Assembly: GCA_944358895.1 (NCBI GenBank)
Contig: CALVSB010000003.1
Location: forward strand, 22,868 to 86,867
Length of the DNA stretch: 64,000 bases
Direction of reading: 5' to 3'
Origin: an uncultured Bacilli bacterium
GTDB lineage: Bacteria; Bacillota_I; Bacilli_A; RFN20; CAG-826
This document shows positions 13,319 through 39,200 of the stretch, one piece after another. The translations under genes and the position numbers were made by a program. How positions within the stretch are numbered: position 1 is the first letter of the stretch; every line of letters starts with the position of its first letter. Under the pieces are notes generated by a model. The model searched no databases, was not told where the DNA came from, and saw only the letters and a program-made list of their open reading frames with translations.

Positions 13319-14170
13319 TCAGCGGAGGGAAGCGAGGTCGAGGCGGATGCGCTGGCCCGAGGGCGCAAACGGCTCGAGGCGGTAGGCGTCCCCGACTTCA
13401 ATCTCGAAGCCCAATTCGGTCGGGACGACGAGCTTGCCTTCGCTCCGGCCGTAGGAGGCTAAGACGAGGGTGCCCGAAGCCGGTTCGCCTTCGCCCTTGA
13501 GCGGCAAGTAAGAAGGATCGAGTTTTAAGCCGAGCATCCAGTCGTAGGAATAGGCCCACGGCTCGCCCGTCAAGACGCTGCTGCCGGAAAGGAGAGGCGC
13601 ATAGTTCCTTCCGAGTTCGCCATCCGCGACATAATCGCTTTGATAGAGTTCCTGCCAATAGTTGACGGCCATGGAACTATAGAGGAGGCAATGCTCGCCG
13701 TCGTAGAGGGTGATGACCTCGAAAGGCAGCTCGTAGGCCGGGGCACCGGAGATTTCGACAGAAGTCCGGCCGGTCGGGCTCAGAACCGTCAAAAGGCATT
13801 CGACCTTCCGCCCGGCAAAGCTCGAAAGGGGCAAAGACTCGTCGTCGGGGAACGTGAAGTAGAAGCAATAGGCCTCGTCGACATAGGCCTCGTCGTAGAC
13901 GTGGGTCGGGGCGCTTTTCACGAGTTGTTCGCCGTATCCGTACCTGCTTAAGGCGAAGACCTCCTCGTAGGAAGAGACCTCGGCCCCCGCTTCCGGGGAC
14001 AGGGACTCCCGCCCCTCGATGAAGCTGGCAACCATTTCGTGGAAGCCGACGGCAAAGCTTTCGACCTTCCCGCCAACCGGGGGAGCGAAAGGGTCGGACG
14101 AGGGCCCGCACGCGGCGAGCGACAGGGCTGCTAGGCCCAAGGCGGCGAGGCTGAGGCGCGTCGTTTTCAT
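13319..14170 (-). CDS. Lipoprotein, unknown function
   Basis: MKTTRLSLAALGLAALSLAACGPSS lipobox. No recognisable domain. Confidence 0.6.
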   Translation of the reverse strand: MKTTRLSLAALGLAALSLAACGPSSDPFAPPVGGKVESFAVGFHEMVASFIEGRESLSPEAGAEVSSYEEVFALSRYGYGEQLVKSAPTHVYDEAYVDEAYCFYFTFPDDESLPLSSFAGRKVECLLTVLSPTGRTSVEISGAPAYELPFEVITLYDGEHCLLYSSMAVNYWQELYQSDYVADGELGRNYAPLLSGSSVLTGEPWAYSYDWMLGLKLDPSYLPLKGEGEPASGTLVLASYGRSEGKLVVPTELGFEIEVGDAYRLEPFAPSGQRIRLDLASLR

Positions 14171-15374: not shown

Positions 15375-15511
15375 ATACGCCAGAGTTCATACTACCAAAC
15401 CAGTAAAAACAAGGTAGGAAAAGCCTCCGTTCTTTGGACTAATACGTAGGCTTTTTTGACGATGCAATAGATCCGAAACGAAGTCAGTTTTAGAAAGAAG
15501 TTTCTCCTAGA

Positions 15512-16894
15512 TTAATCATCAGCATCAACAATTTTCCAATAGCCAGCTTTGTTGGATCCGACTCTGACAATCAAGGACGACTTCCTGAATTTTTTCATTG
15601 CTTTCTGAACAGTCGACAGGGAAACATTGGCAACCTCCGAAATTTCATCTTGGGTCGACCTTGGATTTTCCCGAATCGCAAACAAAATCTTCATCTCGGT
15701 TTTGCTTAGCCGATCAGCAATCTTATCCATCTCATCCTTGAACGAGTGCTTCCAGTTGTAGGGAATCGTAACGACAATGCAGTCTTCGCCAATCTTAAAT
15801 GCCTTCCGGCCGAAATAAGAAACAATAAGCGGATTTCCTTTGCCGGTTCTTTCGCTTAGATGGGTGGCCAGAAAAATAGACGATAGTTCTTCATTGACGG
15901 GAACGCTCCGGCCGTTATAGAAGCCTTCGACCGTTTGGCTCGGGGCCAGGGACGAGAAGGATGTTATTTCGACGCGGTCGTCGAAGAACGTGATCATCGG
16001 GGCCGTCCGCCGGAGCCATGAGTTATGAATGAAGGCATTTTTCACTGCCTCGTTGAAACAATCTTGGTTGAAAAGAGGAACGTCCGTCCGGATGCCGGTA
16101 TGGACGTTCTCCACCGCTTTTGGCATGTTGATGGTGTCGGAGTAATCGATGATGCGGTCAATGACCGAAACAAGGCTTTGATTTCCAAATTCCTTAACCG
16201 AAAACAATTTGCTTGCCTTATCTGATCCCGAAAAGATGGCAACTCGAACGGGGATCTCGCCGTTATCTGCTAGAAAGCAGGCCAGCATGTTGTACTTGCC
16301 GTCCGGGCAAAACAAATGCATGTTCACCTTGAAAGTGGCGTCGTTGAAAAGAAGGCCTTTCCCAAGGTAATAGGTTTTGAGTTGGTTGAACGTGAGATCT
16401 TGGACGGGCGACTCGGTATTCACCATCGTCGGATAGCCCCGGAGCAAAACGTTCCAGAGGAGTCCTTCCCTTTCCGGATATTTCTCGAGGGAAGCGATGC
16501 TCGAGCCAATGCGCGAATACCTTATTTTGTTAAAGGCCGTCGGGACCGTTTTGGCGCTCGGAATAACCAAGGCGACCACACGTTTGCCATTCATGGTAAC
16601 TTCTTGGAAACGAAAGGCAATCGATGGCTTTAGATTTCGGGCCAAGTAGTTCTGAAGCGGTTCGCTTTTATAATGTCCAAACGGGTTTACGGATGTGCCT
16701 ACGACCTCATGCGTTTTATCGTCGATGCCCCAAACGAGGTAGCCGTAATCTTTGCCTACGATGGCCGCCGAGTTCGACAAAGCCGAAATGTAGTGGCCGA
16801 TTCTCTCTTCTTCGAACCAATCGACCTTAAATTCAAACCACTCCTCTTCGTCTGTTCTGCTGAGGAGGTCAGAAATTACATCAACCAAATTCAT
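15512..16894 (-). CDS. AlbA_2 (divergent AAA / Schlafen-type) domain protein with C-terminal winged-helix HTH; putative transcriptional regulator
   Basis: N-terminus: EEEWFEFKVDW..IGHYISALSNSAAIVGKDYGYLVWGIDDKTHEVVGT. C-terminus: LSKTEMKILFAIRENPRSTQDEISEVANVSLSTVQKAMKKF. The gene is AT-richer than its surroundings. Confidence 0.65.
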   Translation of the reverse strand: MNLVDVISDLLSRTDEEEWFEFKVDWFEEERIGHYISALSNSAAIVGKDYGYLVWGIDDKTHEVVGTSVNPFGHYKSEPLQNYLARNLKPSIAFRFQEVTMNGKRVVALVIPSAKTVPTAFNKIRYSRIGSSIASLEKYPEREGLLWNVLLRGYPTMVNTESPVQDLTFNQLKTYYLGKGLLFNDATFKVNMHLFCPDGKYNMLACFLADNGEIPVRVAIFSGSDKASKLFSVKEFGNQSLVSVIDRIIDYSDTINMPKAVENVHTGIRTDVPLFNQDCFNEAVKNAFIHNSWLRRTAPMITFFDDRVEITSFSSLAPSQTVEGFYNGRSVPVNEELSSIFLATHLSERTGKGNPLIVSYFGRKAFKIGEDCIVVTIPYNWKHSFKDEMDKIADRLSKTEMKILFAIRENPRSTQDEISEVANVSLSTVQKAMKKFRKSSLIVRVGSNKAGYWKIVDADD

Positions 16895-16944
16895 ACCATA
16901 CCGCCTACAAACATGATAAGAGAATAGTTATAGGATTGCCAGAA

Positions 16945-16992
16945 AAATTACGGGATAAATTACGGGATAAATTACGGGATAAATTACGGGAT
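16945..16992. repeat. Tandem array 1: four perfect head-to-tail copies of the 12-bp unit AAATTACGGGAT
   Basis: Read directly: units at 16945, 16957, 16969 and 16981. Array starts 51 nt upstream of the AlbA_2/wHTH gene start. Confidence 0.95.
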
Positions 16993-17070
16993 AAACATTC
17001 ATGGAATATTCGATGGATACTGAAGAATTATATATGGATGGTTACCAAGTTTAGAAAATTTAGAGCCGAA

Positions 17071-17118
17071 AAATTACGGGATAAATTACGGGATAAATTA
17101 CGGGATAAATTACGGGAT
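17071..17118. repeat. Tandem array 2: four perfect copies of the same 12-bp unit, same orientation
   Basis: Units at 17071, 17083, 17095 and 17107. Array starts are 126 bp apart, separated by a 78-bp AT-rich spacer. Confidence 0.95.
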
Positions 17119-17200
17119 AAAATTCCCCGCTTGTTTTTGGGATTTTGTCCCTTGCTGCCCCCCTGCTCTCTCAAAGGCAAATTGGACCGTCAAGGCATAG

Positions 17201-17230
17201 AAAAACGGGCCAGGCCTAGGGCCTAGCCCG
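17201..17230 (-). terminator. Intrinsic terminator ending the rimP-to-rbfA operon
   Basis: Minus strand CGGGCUAGGCC-cua-GGCCUGGCCCG (11 bp, one U-G; plus-strand 17206-17230) followed by UUUUU. Confidence 0.8.
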
Positions 17231-17243
17231 TCGAAAGACTGAG

Positions 17244-23880: not shown

Positions 23881-25160
23881 AGTTTGTTCCCGTTAAGGAT
23901 GGGTTCCTCCAAGAGGGCGAAGGACGAGACGGCCGCCCGGTTGATTTCCAACCGGTGCCCGAGGGCCTCGATTTCGCTTCTTAAGAGGTAATGATTCTTG
24001 TTTAGAAGGGCCGCTGCCTCTTCTAGGTAAGGGGCGTTCTCCACAAAGAGCCGCCGGACGAAGGAGGAGGCCGCTTCGAGGAAGCTGCCCAGGCGGAGGC
24101 GGGCGGGCACGACCTTCAATTCCTCCTCGATATGGAAATCGAGGTTGGCCAGGCCCATCGCGCCCCGCTCGAAATAGAGCTTCTCGAGGAGGTCATAGGC
24201 CCTTTCAAGGTCATTGCCGGCCCCGCTGGCCGTTTTCGGGAGGAAGGTCTCGACGGCGATTTTCCCGCCGAGGAGGACGAGGATGCGGCCAAAGGGAGAA
24301 AGGGCCTCGGGCCTTAGGAGGCGGACGTTCCCATACTCCTTCCAGGTGGAGGCAAAACCCACGATCCCCGGGGCGAGGGCCTCGGCGACGAGGAGGTGGC
24401 CCGCCTCGTGGTAGCTGACCTCAAGCCGGCGTTCCTCCCCGTCAGGCGCATCCTCCTCATCGAGGTTTTTTTCGTTGATGGCTTCAACCAAATATCGCAT
24501 CGCAACTTCCTTCGCATTGGAAAGGAGAGCGCGCCTGGCCGCTTCATTGACGGCCTCTTTGGCCTCGGCCGGGGTAAGGGAATAGACGAGTCCCTCAAGG
24601 TCGCTGATCTTCACGTCTTTTCCGCATTTGACCGTCGCGGCAAAGGCCTTTATGAGAGCGGCTCCGTCCTCGTGGGAGACCTCCTCGAGCCGGAAAAAGA
24701 AGTCGAACCGCCCTTTTCGGATGAGGCTACGGGGAACCTTGTAGGTCGAATTCATGGTAGCGACGACAAAGACGTCCTCCGGCGAGGAGGCGTCGATCAA
24801 GGACTGGAGGTGGCCGTACCTCGTGTTCCGGCCTTCCGAGCCATAGGCCTTGTCGAGATCGTCAAAGAGGATGACGCTCGGGGCCTTTTCCTTGGCCTCG
24901 GCAAAGAGGGCGGCGAGGTCATCGAGCCGAGGGTCGCCCGGCCGGACGAGAAAGGAAGTACGTCCGCTCGCCTCCATAAAGGCCTTCGCGAAGGAAGTCT
25001 TCCCGGTTCCGGGACGGCCGAGGAAGAGAAGGCCCTTAGGCGGGATCCCGCCCATGGCCCGGTAGAGATCCCCTTCCTTCAATGTTCGGAGGATTTTCCC
25101 CATTTGCTTCTTGAGGGAGGCACGGCCCACCAGGCCGTTGAAAGCATCCATCGTATCCAT
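23877..25160 (-). CDS. Soluble FtsH-like AAA+ / M41 metalloprotease homolog with intact HEAGH
   Basis: FNGLVGRASLKKQ..GLLFLGRPGTGKTSFAKAF, VILFDDLD, VATMNSTYKVPRSLIRKGRFD, SYHEAGHLLVAEAL, LLGGKIAVE, GAGNDLERA. Start at the ATG at 25160 (MDTMDAF) behind GGAAAGGA. No N-terminal TM region. Confidence 0.7.
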   Translation of the reverse strand: MDTMDAFNGLVGRASLKKQMGKILRTLKEGDLYRAMGGIPPKGLLFLGRPGTGKTSFAKAFMEASGRTSFLVRPGDPRLDDLAALFAEAKEKAPSVILFDDLDKAYGSEGRNTRYGHLQSLIDASSPEDVFVVATMNSTYKVPRSLIRKGRFDFFFRLEEVSHEDGAALIKAFAATVKCGKDVKISDLEGLVYSLTPAEAKEAVNEAARRALLSNAKEVAMRYLVEAINEKNLDEEDAPDGEERRLEVSYHEAGHLLVAEALAPGIVGFASTWKEYGNVRLLRPEALSPFGRILVLLGGKIAVETFLPKTASGAGNDLERAYDLLEKLYFERGAMGLANLDFHIEEELKVVPARLRLGSFLEAASSFVRRLFVENAPYLEEAAALLNKNHYLLRSEIEALGHRLEINRAAVSSFALLEEPILNGNKL

Positions 25161-38056: not shown

Positions 38057-38809
38057 CTAGGCGTTAGCCGCCGCTTTGCTCACGACGATCCGCCCAAGGG
38101 CCAAATTGCACCCCTGGCCGTTGAATTCGATCTTGTCGTCCATCCGGACCAGAATCCGGCTGGCCCCGTCGGCATCGAGATAAGCCACGATCGGCTCGGA
38201 TGAGAAATCGGAGGTATAAGGCGGGATCTCGGGAAGGGCTTTGTTCGTGACATCCTCATCGGTCACCGTGTGGCTATAGCTATAGGTATCGACCGGGTCC
38301 GAGACCGAGAACCCATCCTCGTCGATGCTGTAGGCAATGGTCGAGAGGCTGAAGGCGAAAGTTTCCCCAACCGCGGCCACGGTGAGGTTGTTCAAGTTGG
38401 TGACGTGGCAATAGAGTTCCACTTTTACTTCCCCGGATAGTCCCTCGATGTCGGGAGTCCGCATGTAGCCTTCAGGGTCGATGAGGTTCAGGTAGTTGCT
38501 CCCGAATTTCGAATTGACCGTCGAATAGCCTTCTTCGAAGAAGGCCAGTTCGTTGCCCTCGTACCCGGCGAAGGACTTTTCGAAGAGGGTCTCCCATTCC
38601 CCGTCGGCATCCTCAAGGGAGGAAGAGGAAGCGCTCCCGAGGGAATCGCTGTCGGTAATCCCTTCTGAGGAGGAACTGCCCTCGAGGGAGGAAGAGGAGG
38701 CCGGAATCTCAACCTCTATTTCCGAAGAAGAGGAAAGGGAAGAAGCAAGGGGCGAGGAGCAGGAAGCGAGCAAGGCTAGGGCAAGCGGGAACAAACATTT
38801 CTTTGTCAT
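38057..38809 (-). CDS. Lipoprotein, unknown function
   Basis: Start at the ATG at 38809 (MTKKCLFPLALALLASCSS lipobox), Ser-rich linker. No Shine-Dalgarno; TATAGT lies 6 nt before the ATG. Confidence 0.55.
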   Translation of the reverse strand: MTKKCLFPLALALLASCSSPLASSLSSSSEIEVEIPASSSSLEGSSSSEGITDSDSLGSASSSSLEDADGEWETLFEKSFAGYEGNELAFFEEGYSTVNSKFGSNYLNLIDPEGYMRTPDIEGLSGEVKVELYCHVTNLNNLTVAAVGETFAFSLSTIAYSIDEDGFSVSDPVDTYSYSHTVTDEDVTNKALPEIPPYTSDFSSEPIVAYLDADGASRILVRMDDKIEFNGQGCNLALGRIVVSKAAANA

Positions 38810-38829
38810 GGCCAAACTATACACGAAAA

Positions 38830-39200
38830 GGAGGGGCGTGCGGGGGTTTCTCCGGGTGGCCGCCCTTACCTTATAGCTGCCCCCAAGGATGCAATGCCAT
38901 CCGCGGAGGGTTAATTGTTAGCTTCCCAATGGCCTATGCCGGCCACCTTGCTCCTTTTTTCCAGGTAGCCGCCCGGGAACGGGAGAGCCTAGAGTCAACC
39001 GCTTGGTCCTGGAAAAGAAAACAGGCCGGATGGGGAATCAGCCTTAGATATGCCCTGCCCTGTCGGTTTCGATGCATTGCACGCCCCTCCAGGGTTACTC
39101 GGAACTCTTGAAGAAAAAATATCTTCGGTCTTTTCAACCCTCTATGCATTTCTGGTTTCCTTTCTTCCGGCCGCCCATTGAAAGCAGACCAGTGACAGGA
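38830..39200. ncRNA. Candidate structured RNA or degraded element (unclassified, strand unresolved)
   Basis: GC-rich noncoding stretch with nested complementarity: GGTGGCCG 38855-38862 / CGGCCACC 38940-38947; GGATG 38887-38891 / CATCC 38898-38902; CCAGG 38961-38965 / CCTGG 39008-39012; CCCG-GGAA-CGGG 38972-38983; ACAGG 39021-39025 / CCTGT 39059-39063. Confidence 0.3.

What the first reader, a model, noticed from the sequence alone, without database searches (positions are those of the whole stretch)
15376..17243. AT-rich insertion between rbfA and truB: AlbA_2/wHTH regulator preceded by two 4 x 12-bp iteron-like arrays
In Bacillota the order is typically ...infB-rbfA-truB-ribF. Here rbfA is followed by its terminator (17201-17230) and then an AT-richer segment. 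It contains two perfect tandem arrays of AAATTACGGGAT, four copies each (16945-16992 and 17071-17118), in the same orientation. Their starts are 126 bp apart, which is 12 helical turns at 10.5 bp per turn. They flank a 78-bp AT-rich spacer that carries ATGGAT twice. A 460-aa gene encoding an AlbA_2 (Schlafen-type) domain plus a C-terminal winged helix starts 51 nt from array 1. Direct repeats flanking an AT-rich core is the layout of iteron-type plasmid/phage replication origins. It is also the layout of operator arrays for cooperative repressor binding. The 12-bp period is short for classical iterons. AlbA_2-type proteins are frequent in defence and mobile islands. No integrase or Rep gene is present, so this may be a remnant or a self-contained regulatory cassette.
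Basis: partly seen in the sequence, partly recalled or inferred. Interest (0 to 1): 0.6.

Follow-up and report, generated by a model that had tools for sequence, protein, structure and literature searches.

The report
Binding-site arrays of a Schlafen gene
The two 4 x 12-bp repeat arrays are most likely the docking sites for the DNA-binding tail of the adjacent, horizontally acquired bacterial Schlafen-type nuclease/ATPase gene, a gene-plus-own-repeat pairing that recurs across this protein family but that I could not find described in the literature.

Summary
Two perfect 4 x 12-bp arrays (16945-16992, 17071-17118) lie upstream of a 460-aa gene (15512-16894, minus strand) inside a low-GC insert next to rbfA.

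- **The protein.** It is a prokaryotic Schlafen of the "HisKinase-HTH" or "Schlatpase-HTH" class: an AlbA_2 nuclease domain with an intact Ex4ExK motif, a GHKL ATPase and a C-terminal winged helix.
- **The arrays.** They are not a replication origin. In 573 kb around 50 relatives, 10-13-bp arrays are about 40 times denser just upstream of family genes than elsewhere (p = 8e-27). Each paralogue has its own unit.
- **Close orthologues.** They carry TTTATCTACNNN directly before a -10 box. Four of nine also carry an inverted, in-frame copy that encodes an (x-V-D-K)n linker before the winged helix.
- **The window copy.** It changed the 6-mer (TTTATCCCGTAA) together with the first residues of the recognition helix. 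It lost the internal array and has two upstream arrays.
- **Sister strain.** It keeps the gene (28 changes, all synonymous), the proximal array and three distal units. The spacer between the arrays is unrelated.

Most likely function: cognate operator arrays for autoregulation, probably repression, of a mobile defence-type gene. Binding itself is inferred, not shown.

The parts
15512..16894 (-). Gene for a 460-aa prokaryotic Schlafen protein (P0001): AlbA_2/SLFN nuclease domain, GHKL ATPase and winged helix
   Evidence: Pfam hits: AlbA_2 8.6e-19, HATPase_c_4 6.1e-8, HTH_24 1e-10. AF2 model pLDDT 90, pTM 0.76. Foldseek matches 3LMM at 1.5e-20, plus SLFN13/11/14 and MarR-type wHTH-DNA complexes. 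All 28 differences from the sister strain are synonymous.
16826..16849 (-). Codons for E16-x4-E21-x-K23, the Schlafen catalytic motif
   Evidence: E16 and K23 are invariant across 114 homologues. E21 is invariant in the 8 closest genus relatives. The motif is defined in PMC13056530. Coordinates.
16016..16057 (-). Codons for the GHKL N-box (E282, N286, H290, N291, W293)
   Evidence: These residues are invariant in alignment A3. Coordinates.
15710..15739 (-). Codons for the disordered linker KDEMDKIADR (residues 386-395), a decayed remnant of the internal array
   Evidence: pLDDT is below 50 at residues 385-392. Orthologues carry in-frame 12-bp arrays here that encode (xVDK)n. 59 of 114 homologues have at least two tandem xxD[KN] motifs here.
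15581..15619 (-). Codons for the wHTH recognition helix LSTVQKAMKKFRK (residues 426-438)
   Evidence: Helix 426-438 in the AF2 model. Six of the nine orthologues read GKTTVQ at this position and their units all carry the core TACC.
15536..15565 (-). Codons for the wing RVGSNKAGYW (residues 444-453), conserved across the family
   Evidence: G451 and W453 are invariant; R444, G446, S447 and K449 are nearly invariant. Strands 442-445 and 452-455.
16945..16992 (-). Proximal array, 4 x 12 bp (TTTATCCCGTAA in gene sense); the putative operator
   Evidence: Identical in the sister strain L111.
17071..17118 (-). Distal array, 4 x 12 bp, same unit and orientation
   Evidence: The sister strain has 3 copies.
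16993..17070 (.). 78-bp spacer between the arrays; not conserved
   Evidence: 50% identity to the 102-bp spacer of the sister strain. Shuffled controls give 0.49 +/- 0.02.
16913..16942 (-). Promoter-like site directly after the proximal array: -35 CTGGCA 16942-16937 and -10 TATCAT 16918-16913. An alternative -10, TATAAC, lies at 16932-16927.
   Evidence: Consensus scan, 9 of 12 matches. The 53 nt between array and ATG are 94% identical in the sister strain. Orthologues have TGnTATAAT 1-5 nt after their arrays.
17204..17232 (-). rbfA terminator; upstream limit of the cassette
   Evidence: 13-pair stem followed by a T-run.
15419..15455 (.). Hairpin AAAAGCCTCCGT...ACGTAGGCTTTT between the convergent Schlafen and PP-loop genes; a likely two-way terminator
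   Evidence: Inverted repeat I4, 12 nt arms, 92% complementary.

Best explanation
The 1.8-kb low-GC segment is a horizontally acquired single-gene cassette. Its gene encodes a prokaryotic Schlafen protein of the HisKinase-HTH ("Schlatpase-HTH") class. This combines a Schlafen-type nuclease domain with an intact Ex4ExK site, a GHKL ATPase and a C-terminal winged helix.

The two 4 x 12-bp arrays are the cognate DNA sites of that winged helix. Each unit has an AT-rich part (TTTAT) and a specific 6-7-bp core. I infer that the conserved wing reads the AT-rich part and that the variable start of the recognition helix reads the core. Several copies would then bind head to tail, one per helical turn.

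The proximal array ends 2-12 nt before the promoter-like elements. Occupancy should therefore control the gene's own transcription, most likely by repression, which would keep a potentially toxic nuclease at a low level. The distal array would add cooperativity or looping.

**Shown:**
- the sequence features and domain identity;
- the insertion status;
- purifying selection on the gene;
- the family-wide, position-specific pairing of gene and array, with unit and helix changing together.

**Inferred:**
- physical binding;
- the sign of regulation;
- nuclease activity and any defence role.
For: 1. **Domains.**. E16 and K23 are invariant and E18 nearly so in 114 homologues, and E21 is invariant in the 8 closest genus relatives. 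The motif definition is from PMC13056530.
2. **Enrichment.** Of 62 arrays (period 10-13, at least 2.8 copies) in 573 kb around 50 relatives, 34 lie in three zones that hold 5.4% of the bases. The zones are -120..+30 of the start, 150-420 nt before the stop, and 0-220 nt after the stop. The binomial p is 8e-27, with 1.98 arrays per kb in the promoter zone against 0.052 elsewhere. Many of the remaining arrays sit 12-61 nt before more distant Schlafen genes.
3. **Same unit recurs around one gene.** Direct copies occur in L040, L025, L036 and L028; inverted copies in L042, L049 and L105-L108.
4. **Internal arrays are in frame.** Every array lying in the linker before the wHTH has period 12 and encodes a 4-aa repeat. 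No 11-bp array lies in a linker.
5. **Orthologue series (58-74% identity).** Their units are TTTATCTACCA(C/A), TTTATCTACCGG or TTTATCTAACAC. In five of the nine the array ends 1-5 nt before TGnTATAAT. The helix reads GKTTVQ with core TACC, GTTTVQ with TAAC, and in the window SLSTVQ with CCGT.
6. **Covariation.** Unit distance follows wHTH distance (rho 0.14, Mantel p 0.002) more than N-terminal distance (rho 0.08, p 0.05).
7. **Sister strain.** The proximal array and promoter region are kept, the spacer is replaced, and the gene has 28 synonymous and 0 non-synonymous changes.
8. **Self-only regulon.** The unit occurs nowhere else in the genome.
9. **Fold.** The wHTH matches MarR-type DNA complexes and the centromere binders AspA and TubR.
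Against: - There is no binding, expression or transcription-start data.
- The sign of regulation is open. With -35 CTGGCA and -10 TATCAT the array lies just upstream of the -35, a position that also suits an activator.
- The Mantel correlation is weak.
- Not every family member has an array: 6 of 27 in the class sample, and the Mycoplasma phage phiMFV1 copy.
- The tested Enterobacterales proteins of the HisKinase architecture (no HTH) gave no phage defence in E. coli (PMC13056530), so a defence role for this class is unproven.
- Perfect repeats could partly reflect recent slippage.
Confidence: 0.68

Rival explanations
1. The arrays are an assembly or anchoring platform rather than a transcriptional operator. 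In this view they act like a plasmid centromere (tubC, parC, stbS). Their main role is to nucleate a DNA-bound oligomer of the Schlafen-ATPase, for example to keep the nuclease latent or to sense loss of or competition for the site. Any autoregulation would be a by-product.
For: - tubC consists of seven 12-bp direct repeats in two sets, bound by the wHTH protein TubR. stbS has two sets of five repeats. Both lie upstream of their own operons (10.1101/2022.04.29.490116).
- Foldseek lists TubR and AspA among the wHTH matches.
- In a related Schlafen-GHKL protein, the GHKL domain drives ATP-dependent tetramers (10.64898/2026.05.29.728809). The window arrays have four units each.
- Many relatives have arrays after the stop codon or inside the frame, where a simple operator is not needed.
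Against: - The most consistent position is directly before the -10 box.
- Copy number ranges from 2 to 18.
- There is no partner NTPase gene of the partition type, and the locus is chromosomal.
- Plasmid centromere binders also autoregulate, so the two readings overlap.
Confidence: 0.17
2. The region is an iteron-type replication origin, or the remnant of one, from a plasmid or phage: direct repeats flanking an AT-rich unwinding core.
For: Two sets of direct repeats around an AT-rich 78-bp spacer inside a low-GC insert.
Against: - There is no Rep or integrase gene.
- The 12-bp units are shorter than classical iterons.
- The spacer is unrelated in the sister strain, while the arrays and gene are kept.
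- The segment sits in the chromosome at the same place in two strains.
- Family-wide, the arrays lie at promoters and inside coding frames.
Confidence: 0.03
3. The arrays are the ends or recombination sites that move the cassette, like transposon end-repeats or att-like sites.
For: - The gene is mobile. The identical protein P0003 sits in two different contexts, once at a tRNA 3' end.
- Many paralogues are bracketed by arrays.
- A weak 16-nt inverted repeat lies at 15405-15420 and 17123-17138.
Against: - In L057/L058 the shared mobile segment extends 224 nt beyond the array and about 720 nt beyond the gene. It ends in a different 24-bp direct repeat.
- In the window both arrays are on one side of the gene.
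- Units differ between paralogues, so no common recombinase site exists.
- Internal arrays are coding.
Confidence: 0.05
4. The arrays are neutral microsatellites produced by slippage in AT-rich intergenic DNA.
For: The copies are perfect, and copy number differs between strains (3 against 4) and between orthologues.
Against: - The unit is kept exactly while the adjacent spacer is replaced.
- Arrays are about 40 times enriched at fixed positions of one gene family.
- The same unit recurs at two or three places around a gene, in either orientation.
Confidence: 0.03

Closest known systems
Prokaryotic Schlafen proteins (pSlfn), HisKinase-HTH composition (Nat Microbiol 2026, PMC13056530); also called Schlatpase-HTH proteins (bioRxiv 10.64898/2026.05.29.728809); COG2865; structural representative PDB 3LMM
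   Same: The domain order is the same: AlbA_2, GHKL, HTH. The Ex4(E/D)xK motif and the GHKL N-box are present, and 3LMM matches over the full length. The gene is sporadic, mobile and single, as these genes typically are.
   Different: Neither paper mentions repeat arrays, operators or autoregulation. No function has been shown for the HTH class. The characterised members use Ig-like, DUF262 or Argonaute sensors.
TubR-tubC of type III plasmid partition (pBtoxis), with related centromere/operator arrays: R388 StbA-stbS and ParR-parC
   Same: Short direct repeats (12 bp in tubC) are arranged in two sets just upstream of the gene for the HTH protein that binds them. Binding is cooperative and the operon is autoregulated. 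The wHTH fold is similar.
   Different: Here the wHTH is the tail of a 460-aa nuclease/ATPase. There is no TubZ, ParM or ParA partner, and the locus is chromosomal. In relatives the arrays also lie inside the coding frame.
PhoB/OmpR-type boxes (from my own knowledge): direct repeats of 10-11 bp, made of a conserved core plus an AT-rich spacer, that replace the -35 element
   Same: The unit has a core plus an AT-rich part. The period is about one helical turn. The geometry is head to tail, and the position is at or just upstream of the -35 region.
   Different: The wHTH here scores as MarR/TrmB/HTH_24, not as the OmpR family. There is no receiver domain. PhoB activates, whereas repression is the likelier reading here.
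Operators inside coding regions, such as lac O2 and gal OI (from my own knowledge)
   Same: A second cognate site lies within the regulated gene. This holds for the orthologues, not for the window copy.
   Different: In this family the internal site is a tandem array that also encodes a flexible 4-aa-repeat linker of the regulator itself.

Membership tests
Prokaryotic Schlafen, HisKinase-HTH / Schlatpase-HTH class | Schlafen AlbA_2 domain (PF04326) above the curated cut-off | tested here: met
   68.6 bits against a cut-off of 25.3, residues 16-133. A profile of the family hits SLFN8/11/12/14. Foldseek matches SLFN13/11/14.
Prokaryotic Schlafen, HisKinase-HTH / Schlatpase-HTH class | Catalytic Ex4(E/D)xK motif | tested here: met
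   E16-x4-E21-x-K23. E16 and K23 are invariant in 114 homologues, and E21 is invariant in the 8 closest genus relatives.
Prokaryotic Schlafen, HisKinase-HTH / Schlatpase-HTH class | GHKL-type ATPase domain (PF13749) after the Schlafen domain | tested here: met
   33 bits against a cut-off of 26, residues 299-359. E282, N286, G351 and G353 are invariant.
Prokaryotic Schlafen, HisKinase-HTH / Schlatpase-HTH class | C-terminal helix-turn-helix | tested here: met
   HTH_24 at 41.4 bits. The AF2 model shows three helices plus a wing at 398-455. MarR-type DNA complexes match.
Prokaryotic Schlafen, HisKinase-HTH / Schlatpase-HTH class | tRNA cleavage and phage defence | not testable with these tools
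   Shown only for other architectures (PMC13056530).
Iteron-type replication origin | Adjacent initiator (Rep) gene whose product binds the iterons | tested here: not met
   The only gene in the insert is the Schlafen gene; no Rep family is hit.
Iteron-type replication origin | Conserved AT-rich unwinding core beside the iterons | tested here: not met
   Spacer identity to the sister strain is 50%, equal to the shuffled level.
Iteron-type replication origin | Located on an extrachromosomal or integrated replicon | tested here: not met
   The segment lies between rbfA and a conserved PP-loop gene in two strains, and holds only 1.8 kb of foreign DNA.
Plasmid centromere arrays (tubC / parC / stbS) | Two sets of short direct repeats upstream of the gene for their binding protein | tested here: met
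.
Plasmid centromere arrays (tubC / parC / stbS) | Partner segregation NTPase (TubZ, ParM or ParA) in the same operon | tested here: not met
   The cassette holds a single gene.
PhoB/OmpR response-regulator boxes | OmpR-family wHTH (Trans_reg_C) with a receiver domain | tested here: not met
   The Pfam hits are HTH_24, TrmB and MarR only.

The most novel reading that the evidence does not exclude
The arrays may be more than operators. They could be the resting platform of an immune sensor. In this reading the winged helices of an ATP-assembled Schlafen-ATPase oligomer dock on the gene's own repeat arrays, upstream, downstream or written into its own linker codons, and this docking keeps the tRNA nuclease silent. 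Loss of docking would release the nuclease; possible triggers are a phage product, competing DNA or damage to the locus. The in-frame inverted arrays of the orthologues would then be a dual-use sequence: protein linker and DNA docking site in one.
Probability: 0.12. Interest if true: 0.85.

Novelty: new variant of a known kind. Interest (0 to 1): 0.6.

Why it matters
Schlafen-GHKL-HTH proteins are the largest class of prokaryotic Schlafens: 19% of pSlfn in one survey, and more than 90% of 60,692 "Schlatpase" proteins in another. No function has been assigned to the HTH.

A cognate, paralogue-specific repeat array next to the gene gives that domain a concrete DNA target that can be tested directly. 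It also explains how many paralogues (up to 27 matches in one 1.7-Mb genome) can coexist without cross-talk.

The family also offers a natural series of helix-and-site pairs for studying winged-helix specificity. In the orthologues it shows a rare case of an operator array that doubles as coding sequence for a protein linker.

For genome annotation, these arrays should not be called iterons, origins or CRISPR-like repeats.

Tried and rejected
- **Related loci.** The search for related loci with family alignments A1 and A2 failed because no stretch was conserved enough. I used the genome search, the fetch from genomes and the look-up of encoding contigs instead.
- **Sequencing runs.** There is therefore no RNA evidence for the transcription start, and no read-level view of copy-number variation.
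- **Spacer promoter.** The spacer holds a perfect TATAAT (about 17035-17030, minus strand), but it is not kept in the sister strain.
- **Plus-strand ORF.** The ORF at 16936-17226 across the arrays (96 aa, reading KLRD repeats) is broken by stops in the sister strain.
- **RNA-level pairing.** Pairing between upstream and internal inverted arrays is unlikely. In orthologues the upstream array lies before the -10 box, and other paralogues have direct copies.
- **Cassette ends.** The terminal inverted repeat at 15405-15420 / 17123-17138 matches only 13 of 16 positions and has no comparative support.
- **PADLOC.** It gave only a weak N-terminal hit to candidate PDC-S50.
- **phiMFV1.** The Mycoplasma phage phiMFV1 homologue shows no clear array.
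- **Solved structures.** A sequence search of solved structures with the single protein found nothing; a profile of the family was needed.
- **Helical phasing.** Spacings of 126 bp (12.0 turns), 138 bp in the sister strain and 81 bp in L062 show no conserved phase.
Full report
**1. What is in the window**

TRF reports two arrays of AAATTACGGGAT, each 4.2 copies and 100% identical, at 16945-16995 and 17071-17121. The exact 12-mer occurs eight times in the 64-kb window and in the whole 1.46-Mb assembly, all at this locus.

The arrays lie upstream of a minus-strand ORF, 15512-16894, of 460 aa. In gene sense the region reads as follows:
- rbfA stop, then the rbfA terminator (17232-17204);
- about 80 nt;
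- the distal array (TTTATCCCGTAA x4);
- a 78-nt spacer;
- the proximal array (x4);
- TTTTTCTGGCAATCCTATAACTATTCTCTTATCATGTTTGTAGGCGGTATGGT, then the ATG;
- the gene;
- a hairpin (15419-15455) facing the convergent PP-loop gene.

GC falls to 0.35-0.50 across the segment, against about 0.60 on both sides.

**2. The protein**

Pfam gives Schlafen AlbA_2 (residues 16-133, 8.6e-19), HATPase_c_4 (299-359, 6.1e-8) and a winged helix (HTH_24, 396-442, 1e-10, with TrmB and MarR).

A profile of 28 family members hits PDB 3LMM (5.8e-25), mammalian SLFN8/11/12/14 and MarR/Lrs14-type regulators.

An AlphaFold2 model built on 114 homologues has pLDDT 90 and pTM 0.76. It shows:
- a disordered linker at 385-392;
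- a wHTH with helices at 398-409, 415-422 and 426-438;
- a wing at 442-455.

Foldseek returns 3LMM (1.5e-20), SLFN13/11/14, MarR-type DNA complexes and the centromere binders AspA and TubR.

The Schlafen catalytic motif Ex4(E/D)xK (PMC13056530) is present as E16-x4-E21-x-K23. The GHKL N-box residues E282 and N286, and G351 and G353, are invariant in the family.

The protein is therefore a member of the "pSlfn HisKinase-HTH" class (19.2% of prokaryotic Schlafens). The same class is called "Schlatpase-HTH" in a second study (60,692 proteins, more than 90% with an HTH). [quoted passage not shown] Neither paper mentions repeat arrays.

**3. It is an insertion**

In ten same-genus genomes the order is infB, rbfA, a PP-loop (TtcA-like) gene on the opposite strand, truB, ribF.
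- rbfA and the PP-loop gene are 87-324 bp apart in four genomes.
- In four other genomes the gap is 1.1-3.3 kb and holds unrelated genes.
- None of the ten has a Schlafen gene there.

Close orthologues (58-74% identity) sit in unrelated contexts. The identical protein P0003 occurs in two contexts, once directly after a tRNA 3' end. More distant family members (about 31% identity) also occur on plasmids, satellite phages and a Mycoplasma phage.

A sister strain from another sample (95-98% nucleotide identity) has the same gene at the same place.

**4. The arrays belong to the gene family**

I fetched 573 kb around 50 homologues from relatives and ran TRF.
- Period 12 dominates all tandem repeats.
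- Of 62 arrays with period 10-13 and at least 2.8 copies, 34 fall in three small zones that hold 5.4% of the sequence. The zones are -120..+30 of the start, 150-420 nt before the stop, and 0-220 nt after the stop.
- The binomial p is 8e-27. Density is 1.98 per kb in the promoter zone against 0.052 per kb elsewhere.
- Many of the remaining arrays are second upstream arrays. Others sit 12-61 nt before more distant Schlafen genes, a stand-alone 89-aa wHTH gene, or other orphan ATPase genes.

Each paralogue has its own unit, and the same unit recurs around the same gene in either orientation:
- direct copies in L040, L025, L036, L024, L039 and L028;
- inverted copies in L042 and L049.

The two other Schlafen paralogues of the window's own genome (contigs C17 and C5) also carry repeat modules of their own, with a 20-bp period.

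A sample of the wider class, which includes genomes where the ORF is open only with TGA read as sense, shows arrays at the expected places in 21 of 27 loci.

**5. Arrays inside the reading frame**

Every array that lies in the linker before the wHTH has period 12 and is read in frame as a 4-aa repeat (VGNK, DTQN, TTQK, NATK, GAKN and others). These arrays sit between the GHKL domain and the wHTH. No 11-bp array lies in a linker.

In the orthologue series the internal array is the reverse complement of the upstream one:

| Locus | Upstream unit | Internal array |
|---|---|---|
| L106 | TTTATCTACCGG | CCGGTAGATAAA, encoding PVDK x4 |
| L105, L107, L108 | related units | same inverted arrangement |

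The peptide is x-V-D-K because the reverse complement of TTTATCTAC is GTAGATAAA. 59 of 114 homologues have at least two tandem xxD[KN] motifs in this linker.

The window protein has only KDEMDKIADR at this position. This is a decayed remnant in the segment the model predicts to be disordered.

**6. Position relative to the promoter**

In the orthologues the array ends a few nt before a -10 box. In five of the nine it ends 1-5 nt before an extended -10 box:
- TGATATAAT in L057 and L108;
- TGCTAAAAT in L062;
- TGCTATAAT in L106;
- TGTTATAAT in L109.

No -35 match is present. In L057 and L109 the ATG follows the -10 box by 6 nt. The array therefore occupies the -35 region, which favours promoter occlusion.

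In the window, the proximal array is followed by CTGGCA-18 nt-TATCAT (9 of 12 matches), or by TATAAC 12 nt after the array. These 53 nt are 94% identical in the sister strain.

**7. Unit and helix change together**

| Loci | Helix start | Unit core |
|---|---|---|
| Six of the nine orthologues | G-K-T-T-V-Q | TACC |
| L105 | G-T-T-T-V-Q | TAAC |
| Window | S-L-S-T-V-Q | CCGT |

The TTTATC part of the unit and the wing (GSNKxGxW) stay constant.

Over 49 gene-array pairs, unit distance correlates with wHTH distance (Spearman 0.14, Mantel p 0.002). The correlation with N-terminal distance is weaker (0.08, p 0.05). The partial correlations are 0.126 and 0.036. The effect is significant but weak.

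**8. Sister-strain test**

- The gene differs at 28 positions, all synonymous. If roughly three-quarters of random changes are non-synonymous (my estimate), the chance of this is about 1e-17.
- The proximal array is identical.
- The distal array has three units instead of four.
- The inter-array spacer is 102 nt instead of 78 nt and is 50% identical. That equals shuffled controls (0.49 +/- 0.02).
- The flanks are 86-99% identical.

This removes the "AT-rich core", the ATGGAT pair and the 126-bp phasing as conserved features. It also shows selection on the gene and the units.

**9. Conclusion**

The arrays are best read as the cognate operator of the gene's own winged helix, and the cassette regulates itself. 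Repression is more likely than activation. Binding, the sign of regulation and nuclease activity are inferred.

The nearest known DNA layouts are tubC (seven 12-bp repeats in two sets, bound by the wHTH protein TubR), stbS and parC, and PhoB-type boxes (from my own knowledge). The locus fails the defining tests of a replication origin and of a partition system.

Earlier notes of this scan describe the same pairing in other genomes. I treated them as leads and reached the result from my own data. Searches of the literature found no description of the arrays.

Noticed in passing
window 13319-14170 (minus strand): A 283-aa ORF between the PP-loop gene and truB has no Pfam or NCBIfam hit. It is absent from ten same-genus relatives. 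It is only 66.6% identical (46 gap columns) to the sister strain, whose flanks are about 97% identical, so it looks like a hypervariable or replaced gene.
   Followed up: partly
window 16993-17070, compared with L111 2797-2898: The spacer between the two arrays is unrelated between sister strains (identity at the shuffled level, 78 against 102 nt), although the arrays on both sides are kept. How it was replaced is unexplained.
   Followed up: partly
own genome, G000:C17 near 24355-24585 and G000:C5 near 38642-38854 (outside the window): Two more Schlafen-GHKL paralogues carry their own repeats. C17 has an 80-nt module (TGATTCTTGCTCCTTTGGCCAAAA...CAAGAATATTTCC, 20-bp period) both before the start and after the stop. 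C5 has TCTTTCGAAAGA palindromes at 20-bp spacing after the stop.
   Followed up: partly
L057 3701-6130; L058 485-2931: A 2.4-kb segment (array, Schlafen gene, 158-184-aa ORF) is shared at 98.6% between two contexts. It is bounded by a 24-bp direct repeat (TTATAACTAACATTTTGATACAAA). In L058 it starts right after a tRNA 3' end. In L057 it follows a RhuM + HTH_3 unit that begins with the same 100-bp left end, which suggests tandem cassettes without an integrase.
   Followed up: partly
L062 1523-1559; L026 3490-3521; L024 1857-1962; L018 849-879: The same kind of array, and in L062 and L026 the same unit as the neighbouring Schlafen gene, precedes genes of other families. These are AAA_14-DUF4143, AAA-ATPase_like + PDDEXK_9, ATPase_2, and a stand-alone 89-aa wHTH gene. 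Some Schlafen-HTH proteins may therefore control neighbours as well.
   Followed up: partly
G024 (same genus, 1.7 Mb): There are 27 matches to P0001 in one small genome, several with internal stops. This is a large lineage-specific expansion of the family.
   Followed up: no
L093-L102 (rbfA / PP-loop junction in relatives): The junction is a variable spot in the genus. The gap is 87-324 bp in four genomes and 1.1-3.3 kb with unrelated ORFs in four others.
   Followed up: partly
L057 3983-4003; L109 near 1975-2003: TGnTATAAT is followed by the ATG after only 6 nt. These orthologues may be translated from leaderless mRNAs.
   Followed up: no
window 15405-15420 and 17123-17138: A 16-nt inverted repeat (13 of 16 matches) lies at the two edges of the low-GC segment. 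It could mark cassette ends or be chance.
   Followed up: no
window 16945-17118, plus strand: Read on the opposite strand, the upstream arrays encode (KLRD)n. This is the same type of peptide as the (xVDK)n linkers of orthologues. It fits arrays having moved between the upstream region and the linker by inversion.
   Followed up: partly
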